Origin: Escherichia coli
GTDB taxonomy: Bacteria; Pseudomonadota; Gammaproteobacteria; Enterobacterales; Enterobacteriaceae
Reading direction: 5' to 3' (one strand)
DNA length: 64,000 bases
NCBI RefSeq assembly: GCF_051903065.1
Contig: NZ_CP178438.1
Shown one piece after another: positions 48,597 through 48,941 of this stretch. Made by a program: the position numbers and the translations under genes. The notes below the pieces were generated by a model, which made no database searches, had not been told where the DNA came from, and was given only the letters and a program-made list of their open reading frames with translations. The number at the start of each line of letters is the position of its first letter. The first letter of the stretch is position 1.

Positions 48597-48941
48597 TTAA
48601 AGGTGGAGGGCGATGTGGTGCTGGAGAGCAGCAGCCGGATAAGCCTGAAGGTGGGCGGTTCGTTTGTGGTCATCCATTCAGGGGGCGTGGACATCGTCGG
48701 GCCGAAAATCAATCTCAATAGCGGCGGTAGTCCGGGAACGCCGGTGCCGACGCTGCAACCGGCGGTTCTGAAAGCGCTGGCAGATGATAAAAGTTTAGCG
48801 GCTGAGCAAAATGATAGTAATGCATCGTCCGATCAGAATGATAACAACGATGAGGGTGAGGAAGCGCCAGAAAAATCGGTGTGTAAGGAGTGCCTGAAAA
48901 GGGCGCAGGAAGCCGCCGCCGCTTTTGCGCCTCGTGGATAA
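48597..48941 (+). pseudogene. Orphan 3' fragment of a second vgrG (last ~115 codons only)
   Basis: Translation LKVEGDVVLESSSRISLKVGGSFVVIHSGGVDIVGPKINLNSGGSPGTPVPTLQPAVL matches the intact VgrG segment encoded around 46320..46500; homology stops abruptly upstream of ~48597. Confidence 0.75.

What the first reader, a model, noticed from the sequence alone, without database searches (positions are those of the whole stretch)
48597..48941. Orphan vgrG 3' fragment marks a cargo-module replacement point
Only the last ~115 codons of a second vgrG are present. Homology to the intact vgrG begins abruptly at about 48597 and is preceded by unrelated AT-rich DNA. The fragment is followed directly by the adaptor-like gene and the Tle1-like gene. 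This suggests the HExxH/immunity module was recombined into an ancestral vgrG-adaptor-Tle1 locus, displacing the old vgrG 3' end.
Basis: seen in the sequence. Interest (0 to 1): 0.55.

Follow-up and report, generated by a model that had tools for sequence, protein, structure and literature searches.

The report
Leftover end of a deleted vgrG
This is the dead 3' end of a second type VI secretion spike gene, left when about 1.9 kb was lost together with most of a neighbouring PAAR gene; it is an ordinary, already annotated pseudogene that leaves the downstream Tle1 toxin module without its own spike.

Summary
Window 48597-48941 encodes the last 114 codons of a vgrG. RefSeq already annotates this stretch as "VgrG, incomplete, missing N-terminus" in the sampled genomes that share it. 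Only 48595-48787 resembles the resident vgrG1 (78% nt). The last ~50 codons are a different tail, which in other E. coli sits on intact spikes directly upstream of tla1 (DUF4123)-tli1a-tle1.

Relatives carry vgrG1(TTR tail)-cargo-PAAR-vgrG2-tla1-tli1a-tle1. So the fragment is most simply what is left of a separate PAAR-vgrG2 unit after an illegitimate join removed ~1.9 kb.

The scar occurs in 12 of 5426 complete E. coli genomes. In all seven examined it lies in a block that is at least 98.7% identical.

The Tla1-type tail is single-copy in every genome that has it, so these strains have no spike carrying it. Tle1 is therefore probably undeliverable, but this is inferred, not shown. Four clustered private substitutions at the junction are unexplained. 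The finding is ordinary and of low interest.

The parts
44424..46823 (+). Resident intact spike gene vgrG1 (799 aa) with a TTR-like C-terminal tail, the partner of the M35 cassette.
   Evidence: TIGR03361 at 599 bits. Pfam Phage_GPD, Phage_base_V and Gp5_trimer_C. Tail motif PEKYTLQFHFTDDDGIPYSE is shared with M35-linked vgrGs in N96, Nissle and Buttiauxella.
46309..46501 (+). Copy 1 of the 193-nt direct repeat, inside vgrG1. It includes a 38-nt exact match (46332-46369) to the fragment.
46810..47613 (+). M35-type metallopeptidase effector gene (HExxH), overlapping the vgrG1 stop by 14 nt.
   Evidence: RefSeq calls it 'peptidase M35'. Found in 12 of 5426 E. coli genomes. Homologues at 57-58% identity follow 801-aa vgrGs in Buttiauxella and another E. 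coli locus.
47615..48364 (+). Putative cognate immunity gene. It is cut short here by a T8-versus-T9 frameshift; the reading frame runs to 48454 in strain A30.
   Evidence: It is 43% identical to the Buttiauxella partner and 32% to the N96 partner. The immunity role is inferred from position only.
48530..48599 (+). PAAR gene remnant, about codons 63-86 of a 94-codon PAAR. It has no start codon of its own and is out of frame with the vgrG fragment.
   Evidence: blastn to annotated PAAR genes in ~500 genomes. NCBIfam NF033420 positions 59-85 of 94, E=1.7e-7. Register alignments.
48597..48941 (+). vgrG 3' fragment, equivalent to codons 630-743 of a 743-aa vgrG2. It holds the last beta-helix turns plus the Tla1-type C-terminal tail.
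   Evidence: RefSeq pseudogene.
48608..48617 (+). Four substitutions private to the fragment (48608, 48611, 48615, 48617), in a stretch invariant in all sampled intact vgrG alleles. They are unexplained.
48948..49718 (+). tla1, the DUF4123 adaptor/chaperone gene for Tle1.
   Evidence: NCBIfam NF053803 Tla1 at 220 bits, cutoff 200.
50032..50586 (+). Single tli1a (DUF3304) immunity lipoprotein gene. Relatives carry two or three copies.
   Evidence: NCBIfam NF053804 at 211 bits, cutoff 110. Arrays. 31-nt repeat at 50018/50557.
50603..52663 (+). Tle1-like phospholipase effector gene. The open frame is intact and the GFSRG serine motif is present.
   Evidence: Translation. RefSeq product name.

Best explanation
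The 345 bases are a non-functional remnant of a second spike gene, vgrG2. Its C-terminal tail is the docking site for the Tla1 adaptor and the Tle1 phospholipase.

The precursor, or the donor, had the two-spike layout seen in relatives: vgrG1(TTR tail)-cargo/immunity-PAAR-vgrG2-tla1-tli1a-tle1. An illegitimate join with almost no microhomology (a shared 'TA', with GGTGG three bases further on) fused PAAR codon ~86 to vgrG2 codon 630. This removed about 1,934 nt: the PAAR end, the spacer and 629 vgrG2 codons. A second breakpoint at ~48530 removed the first ~62 PAAR codons, next to the 3' end of the M35/immunity cassette.

**Shown:** the identity of both remnants, their order, the junction position, and that the scar is shared by 12 genomes.

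**Inferred:**
1. The rearrangement is a deletion or an import scar, not a designed feature.
2. Tla1-Tle1 can no longer be loaded, because no spike in these strains carries that tail.
3. The downstream module persists as an orphan, perhaps because tli1a still protects against Tle1-armed relatives.
4. The 193-nt repeat shared with vgrG1 could allow homologous recombination that deletes the M35 cassette and rebuilds a chimeric spike with the Tle1 tail. No such recombinant was observed.
For: - **Remnants and their order.** The PAAR remnant lies directly 5' of the fragment.
- **Two-spike loci exist.** Intact PAAR-vgrG2-tla1 units downstream of a first vgrG plus cargo occur in A22, N96 and O170:H18. 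In N96 the first cargo is a distant M35/immunity pair.
- **Close match to intact spikes.** The fragment is 98.5-98.8% identical to intact vgrG 3' ends over 48618-48941.
- **The two remnants are out of frame** with each other.
- **One junction, few genomes.** The same junction is found in 12 of 5426 genomes.
- **Conserved block.** From the vgrG1 3' end/TTR tail to the tla1-tli1a intergenic region, identity is 98.7-100% in six of the seven genomes examined (33F4 is 97.5% in the tail segment). The vgrG1 body is mosaic at 89-100%.
- **No alternative spike.** The Tla1-type tail is present in 67 genomes and always as one copy.
- **Tail needed for docking.** In P. aeruginosa the last ~20 residues of VgrG4a contact both Tla1 and Tle1, and mutating them abolishes binding (PMC13133936).
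- **Decay in sibling genomes.** tla1 is degraded in PapRG-04-4, tle1 is frameshifted in 2018-05-2CC, and IS600 and IS1 are inserted in FDAARGOS_943.
- **Precedent for the process.** Displacement of modules that leaves orphaned 3' regions is described for Vibrio T6SS clusters and Rhs loci (PMC5361080). A recombination hot spot in the C-terminal coding part of vgrG is described in agrobacteria (PMC8546570).
Against: - The direct parent (this M35 allele followed by an intact PAAR-vgrG2) was not found in 5426 E. coli genomes or among GTDB species representatives.
- Two breakpoints are needed, not one.
- Four private substitutions cluster at 48608-48617, where every sampled intact allele is identical. 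A plain deletion does not explain them.
- The fragment remains an open frame in all seven genomes examined. tla1, tli1a and tle1 are intact in the window.
- The decay seen in sibling genomes coincides with decay of their T6SS core genes, so it is not specific evidence that the Tle1 module was uncoupled.
- The P. aeruginosa docking data are from a different species and a different VgrG tail.
- Expression and delivery were not tested.
Confidence: 0.65

Rival explanations
1. A single-spike locus (hcp-vgrG-tla1-tli1a-tle1) received an incoming piece carrying the vgrG TTR tail, M35, the immunity gene and part of a PAAR gene. The left end recombined by homology inside vgrG. The right end joined illegitimately at vgrG codon 630. 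This duplicated ~64 codons and pushed the old 3' end downstream (homology-facilitated illegitimate recombination).
For: - Single-spike loci are frequent in my hand-picked sample: 6 of 9 loci with an intact tail.
- The window's vgrG1 5' 2.9 kb is 94.6% identical to the single vgrG of FDAARGOS_144.
- Relative to such a locus, the window looks like an insertion of 46502-48617 plus a 170-190-nt duplication.
- The mechanism has been proposed for Vibrio T6SS clusters (PMC5361080).
- The PAAR remnant shares the 'GKP' codons with the PAAR that precedes the M35 cassette in PapRG-04-4.
Against: - The PAAR piece still has to come from a donor in which a PAAR followed the immunity gene, which is a two-spike-like layout.
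- The PAAR 5' end is also missing, so an extra event is needed here too.
- Nothing in the data favours this over an in-place deletion.
Confidence: 0.2
2. The fragment is translated as a small stand-alone protein of about 108-123 aa. It carries the last beta-helix turns and the Tla1-docking tail, and acts as a separate adaptor that still links Tla1-Tle1 to the spike.
For: - The frame is open in 7 of 7 genomes.
- The four private substitutions produce GGAGG followed 5 nt later by an in-frame GTG at 48615. I noticed this pattern only after seeing the substitutions, and did not test it.
- A separately encoded DUF2345 piece was reported to bridge VgrG and an M35 toxin in E. coli PAR (PMC10673891).
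Against: - Only positions ~102-135 of the 151-position DUF2345 model are present, with E=0.16. The precedent concerns a whole domain.
- Private changes within the group are 4 nonsynonymous and 2 synonymous, which gives no sign of constraint.
- FDAARGOS_943 has a substitution inside the GGAGG.
- The promoter-like count in the region is no higher than in shuffled sequence.
- With so few mutations, 345 nt staying open is expected by chance.
Confidence: 0.07
3. The fragment plus its downstream genes is a stored spare cargo module. It is kept because recombination with vgrG1 across the 193-nt repeat can switch the strain from M35 to Tle1 delivery, as orphan Rhs or CdiA tips can be reactivated.
For: - The repeat contains a 38-nt exact match.
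- The predicted product would resemble the single-spike loci that exist.
- Orphan-module activation by recombination is documented for Salmonella Rhs, as cited in PMC5361080.
- Another E. coli lineage has an ISEc1-truncated vgrG tail in front of an M23 peptidase module.
Against: - The repeat is only 78% identical overall.
- No recombinant was identified.
- Sibling genomes show decay rather than maintenance.
- Recombination being possible does not show that the module is kept for that reason.
Confidence: 0.08

Closest known systems
Orphaned 3' regions and displaced effector-immunity modules in T6SS and Rhs loci (Vibrio cholerae model, PMC5361080)
   Same: A new module sits next to the conserved 5' gene. 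An older 3' piece with its downstream genes is shifted distally. One side of the rearrangement is homologous and the other is an illegitimate junction.
   Different: Here the truncated gene is the spike, not a toxin. The whole older effector, adaptor and immunity set is retained. A PAAR remnant shows that a complete second PAAR-vgrG unit was involved.
Recombination hot spot in the C-terminal coding part of vgrG (agrobacteria, PMC8546570)
   Same: The conserved vgrG body is joined to exchangeable C-terminal tails and the downstream cargo genes.
   Different: That work describes clean replacements inferred from gene networks. It does not describe a retained truncated copy.
VgrG4a-Tla1-Tle1 loading complex of Pseudomonas aeruginosa (PMC13133936)
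   Same: The gene set is the same: a spike tail, a DUF4123 adaptor (Tla1), a Tli1a immunity protein and a Tle1 phospholipase. The tla1 and tli1a genes here pass the NCBIfam cutoffs.
   Different: In this window the tail-coding sequence is detached from any spike body. I did not test similarity between the E. coli tail and the VgrG4a tail.
Stand-alone DUF2345 gene bridging VgrG and an M35 toxin in E. coli PAR (PMC10673891)
   Same: A VgrG C-terminal portion is encoded separately, upstream of a cargo gene.
   Different: That protein is a full DUF2345 domain shown to bind both partners. The fragment here keeps only about a quarter of the domain and has no demonstrated expression.

Membership tests
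VgrG/TssI spike protein (functional gene) | N-terminal gp27-like hub and gp5-like OB/beta-helix (TIGR03361, Phage_GPD, Phage_base_V) | tested here: not met
   The fragment gives no NCBIfam hit and only a weak DUF2345 tail hit at E=0.16. vgrG1 in the same window scores 599 bits.
VgrG/TssI spike protein (functional gene) | 3' end homologous to intact vgrG genes | tested here: met
   98.5-98.8% nt identity to the A22 and FDAARGOS_144 vgrG over 48618-48941. 48/60 aa identities to vgrG1, E=9e-30.
PAAR protein gene (remnant) | Match to the T6SS PAAR domain model and to annotated PAAR genes | tested here: met
   NF033420 positions 59-85 of 94, E=1.7e-7, 31 bits against a full-length cutoff of 124, so it is a piece only. 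blastn to PAAR genes in ~500 genomes.
Tla1-Tli1a-Tle1 effector module | Tla1 and Tli1a family models above the curated cutoff | tested here: met
   Tla1 at 220 bits (cutoff 200); Tli1a at 211 bits (cutoff 110).
Tla1-Tli1a-Tle1 effector module | A spike whose C-terminal tail docks Tla1 and Tle1 | tested here: not met
   The tail sequence is single-copy in every genome that has it. In the 12 scar-bearing genomes that copy is the truncated fragment. Binding itself was not tested.
Orphan module left by displacement (Rhs / T6SS effector-immunity type) | Short homology to the upstream full-length gene, then a divergent 3' end with its own downstream partners | tested here: met
   193-nt repeat at 78%, then an unrelated tail followed by tla1-tli1a-tle1.
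Orphan module left by displacement (Rhs / T6SS effector-immunity type) | Reactivation by recombination with the upstream gene | not testable with these tools
   Only the substrate (a 38-nt exact match) is shown. No recombinant genome could be identified.

The most novel reading that the evidence does not exclude
The four private substitutions at the junction were selected because they create a ribosome-binding site and a GTG start. The tail would then be made as a free ~108-aa protein that still couples Tla1-Tle1 to the resident spike. That would be a split spike tail acting as a detachable adaptor.
Probability: 0.06. Interest if true: 0.6.

Novelty: new member of a known kind. Interest (0 to 1): 0.22.

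Why it matters
The fragment is a clear worked example of how E. coli T6SS cargo islands are rebuilt. A conserved spike body, exchangeable tails and PAAR-vgrG units are shuffled, and scars are left behind. For annotation, it warns that an intact tla1-tli1a-tle1 set does not by itself mean the strain can fire Tle1. It also points to tli1a as a possible retained defence. None of this changes the current understanding of T6SS evolution.

Tried and rejected
- **Search for the direct parent.** I looked for this M35 allele followed by an intact PAAR-vgrG2. It was absent from 5426 complete E. coli genomes. A peptide-pattern scan of GTDB species representatives found nothing. The nearest M35 homologues (57-58% identity) are in different contexts.
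- **Intact vgrG with the fragment's exact 5' 21 nt.** None exists in the collection. The best match outside this group is 90.9%.
- **PAAR alleles as the source of the four private substitutions.** Rejected, because all six PAAR alleles that could be aligned differ there.
- **Promoter and terminator scan of 46500-50700.** Counts are no different from shuffled sequence.
- **Selection test on the fragment.** Six private changes are too few to interpret.
- **In-frame PAAR-VgrG fusion protein.** Rejected, because the two remnants are in different frames.
- **Minus-strand ORFs over the fragment (48512-48718 and 48715-48972).** I did not follow these up. They overlap a sequence fully explained by vgrG homology.
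- **Sampling caveat.** The split of 6 single-spike and 3 two-spike loci comes from nine loci I chose by hand out of about 55. It is not a frequency estimate.

Full report
**Context.** The window is an Escherichia coli chromosome segment carrying the T6SS cluster between aspV/yafT and yafV-ivy-fadE. Over 46700-48600 it is 100% identical to strains 23CRST027 and 23CRST031, and 99.9% to A30. Over 43560-56000 it is 98.7% identical to A30. The core genes tssM to tssB are open reading frames of the expected sizes.

Downstream of tssB the order is:
- an IS903B insertion
- hcp
- vgrG1 (44424-46823)
- an M35-type metallopeptidase gene (46810-47613)
- its putative immunity gene (47615-48364)
- the finding (48597-48941)
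- tla1 (DUF4123 adaptor), tli1a (DUF3304 immunity) and tle1
- ISAs1 remnants

These assignments rest.

**Checking the observation.** The fragment is real.
- In protein terms it aligns to vgrG1 residues 630-689 with 48/60 identities, E=9e-30.
- In DNA terms 48595-48787 matches 46309-46501 at 78% without gaps. The longest exact run is 38 nt, 46332-46369 against 48618-48655.
- Beyond 48787 the two sequences are unrelated. vgrG1 continues into an acidic linker and a TTR-like tail. The fragment continues into a different tail ending in ...KECLKRAQEAAAAFAPRG.
- Over 48618-48941 the fragment is 98.5-98.8% identical to the 3' ends of intact vgrG genes in A22 and FDAARGOS_144.
- RefSeq already annotates these 345 bases as an incomplete VgrG pseudogene in every sibling genome I opened.

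So the central observation is correct, and it is not new at the annotation level.

The ~70 nt in front of the fragment are not unrelated AT-rich DNA.
- 48530-48599 matches annotated T6SS PAAR genes in about 500 E. coli genomes at ~83% identity.
- Its translation matches positions 59-85 of the 94-position NCBIfam PAAR model, E=1.7e-7.
- It corresponds to about codons 63-86 of a 94-codon PAAR. It has no start codon of its own and lies in a different frame from the vgrG fragment.
- GC content rises from 0.26-0.33 upstream to 0.53 across this stretch.

**Related loci.** The Tla1-type tail (48788-48945) occurs in 67 of 5426 complete genomes, always once per genome. I opened nine loci in which the tail is attached to a full-length or IS-split vgrG. 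These were chosen by hand, so the split below is not a frequency estimate.
- **Six are single-spike loci** with the order hcp-vgrG-tla1-tli1a(x3)-tle1: SCU-484, FDAARGOS_144, NGF1, PSUO2, 2017-02-2CC, and MFDS1019527, where IS21 splits the vgrG.
- **Three are two-spike loci:** A22, N96 and O170:H18. In these a first cargo set is followed by PAAR, an intact second vgrG, and tla1-tli1a-tle1. In A22 and N96 the first cargo follows a vgrG1 with a TTR-type tail. In O170:H18 the fetched stretch begins inside the first cargo set.

In N96 the first cargo is a distant M35/immunity pair, 24% and 33% identical in protein to the window's pair. M35/immunity pairs are consistently linked to TTR-tailed vgrGs of about 770-801 aa. 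This holds in N96, in Nissle 1917, at another E. coli locus and in Buttiauxella.

**The junction.** In the register of A22, the PAAR-derived sequence ends at 48599 and the vgrG-derived sequence begins at 48597-48600. The two parents share only 'TA' there, with GGTGG three bases further on. The missing segment is about 1,934 nt: the last PAAR codons, the 18-nt spacer and vgrG2 codons 1-629. A second breakpoint at ~48530 removed the first ~62 PAAR codons. It lies ~75 nt after the immunity gene's stop in the A30 reading frame.

**History.** The order and orientation of the two remnants reproduce the PAAR-vgrG2 unit of two-spike loci. The fragment is therefore most simply the remainder of a separate second spike gene. 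It is not the displaced end of the vgrG that now carries the M35 module.

I could not find the direct parent, meaning this M35 allele followed by an intact PAAR-vgrG2. It is absent from 5426 E. coli genomes and from GTDB species representatives. I therefore cannot tell whether the loss happened in place or during import of a cassette into a single-spike locus by homology-facilitated illegitimate recombination. That mechanism has been proposed for Vibrio T6SS clusters (PMC5361080). Both routes need a second event to explain the missing PAAR 5' end.

**Distribution.** The scar is in 12 of 5426 genomes, all with the same junction. In the seven genomes I compared:
- The block from the vgrG1 3' end/TTR tail through M35, the immunity gene, the PAAR remnant, the fragment, tla1 and the following intergenic region is 98.7-100% identical in six genomes. 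In 33F4 the TTR-tail segment is 97.5%.
- The vgrG1 5' and middle parts range from 89% to 100%.
- tle1 ranges from 96% to 100% in the six genomes where it is fully covered.
- In PapRG-04-4 the block is preceded by a PAAR gene instead of hcp.

This fits a single origin followed by homologous exchange on either side.

**Likely consequence.** This part is inferred, not shown. In P. aeruginosa the last ~20 residues of VgrG4a contact both Tla1 and Tle1, and mutating them abolishes binding (PMC13133936). In the scar-bearing strains the only copy of the corresponding tail is the truncated fragment, and the vgrG1 tail is unrelated. Tla1-Tle1 therefore probably cannot be loaded.

Sibling genomes show decay of the module. 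tla1 is degraded in PapRG-04-4. tle1 is frameshifted and tli1a is missing in 2018-05-2CC. IS600 and IS1 are inserted in FDAARGOS_943. In FDAARGOS_943 and 2018-05-2CC the T6SS core genes are also damaged, so this is weak evidence. In the window itself tla1, tli1a and tle1 are intact.

Retention of tli1a as protection against Tle1-armed relatives would fit the Vibrio model of retained immunity genes. This is speculation here.

**Unexplained.** Relative to every intact vgrG allele sampled, the fragment has four private substitutions within ten bases (48608, 48611, 48615, 48617). It has only four or five differences across the remaining 324 nt. No intact E. coli vgrG has this sequence, and no sampled PAAR allele supplies it.

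Possible causes are an unsampled parental allele, error-prone synthesis at the junction, or selection. After seeing the substitutions I noticed that they yield GGAGG followed 5 nt later by an in-frame GTG. This was a post hoc observation at a single junction, and I did not test it.

Against a translated product:
- Only about a quarter of the DUF2345 model is present, at E=0.16.
- Private changes among sibling genomes are 4 nonsynonymous and 2 synonymous.
- FDAARGOS_943 has a change inside the GGAGG.
- The regional promoter scan is at background level.

A stand-alone DUF2345 protein has been reported to bridge VgrG and an M35 toxin in E. coli PAR (PMC10673891). I therefore keep this reading as a low-probability rival.

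**Recombination potential.** The 193-nt repeat with its 38-nt exact core could support a 2,286-bp deletion. That deletion would remove the M35 cassette and rebuild a spike with the Tle1 tail, giving a locus like the single-spike ones. I found no genome that can be identified as such a recombinant.

**Verdict.** This is a pseudogene scar of a second spike gene, produced by a kind of module reshuffling already described for T6SS and Rhs loci. The PAAR remnant changes the reconstruction. Interest is low.

Noticed in passing
window 42503-43559: An IS903B (IS5-family) element is inserted in the divergent tssB-hcp intergenic region, with an apparent 9-bp target duplication. It is present in 23CRST027 but absent from A30 and ECNB21-M121. 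It may affect hcp-vgrG transcription.
   Followed up: partly
window 48341-48348: A run of 8 T (9 in A30) shifts the frame of the putative M35 immunity gene. This shortens it from 279 to 249 codons. The same short form is annotated in 23CRST027 and ECNB21-M121.
   Followed up: partly
window 48608-48617: Four substitutions private to the fragment lie in a stretch that is invariant in all sampled intact vgrG alleles. Their cause is unknown. They happen to form GGAGG-N5-GTG in the vgrG frame.
   Followed up: partly
window 50018-50048 and 50557-50587: A 31-nt repeat marks the overlap between successive tli1a genes. The window has one tli1a where relatives have two or three, which suggests the array contracted by recombination between paralogues.
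   Followed up: no
L012 (E. coli Z1323HEC0462) 5937-6236: This is an independent case. A 99-codon vgrG tail is annotated as a hypothetical protein. It lies directly after an ISEc1 element and in front of an M23 peptidase module. PS10-3 (L025) has ISAs1-PAAR-vgrG(frameshifted)-M23 at the equivalent place.
   Followed up: partly
L018 (E. coli PapRG-04-4) 2420-10953: The whole block, including the scar, is preceded by a PAAR gene and IS remnants instead of hcp and tssB. The block therefore exists in a second context, or the T6SS core was lost there.
   Followed up: no
window 52921-53684 and 55020-55215: Two degraded ISAs1 transposase remnants flank a hypothetical gene and a gene annotated as 'integrating conjugative element protein', between tle1 and yafV. 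The same arrangement is present in most related loci.
   Followed up: no
L010/L024 (E. coli 23CRST027): In this near-identical strain, RefSeq marks vgrG1 as frameshifted and tssM as carrying an internal stop. Both are open in the window, so the window is not that exact genome.
   Followed up: partly
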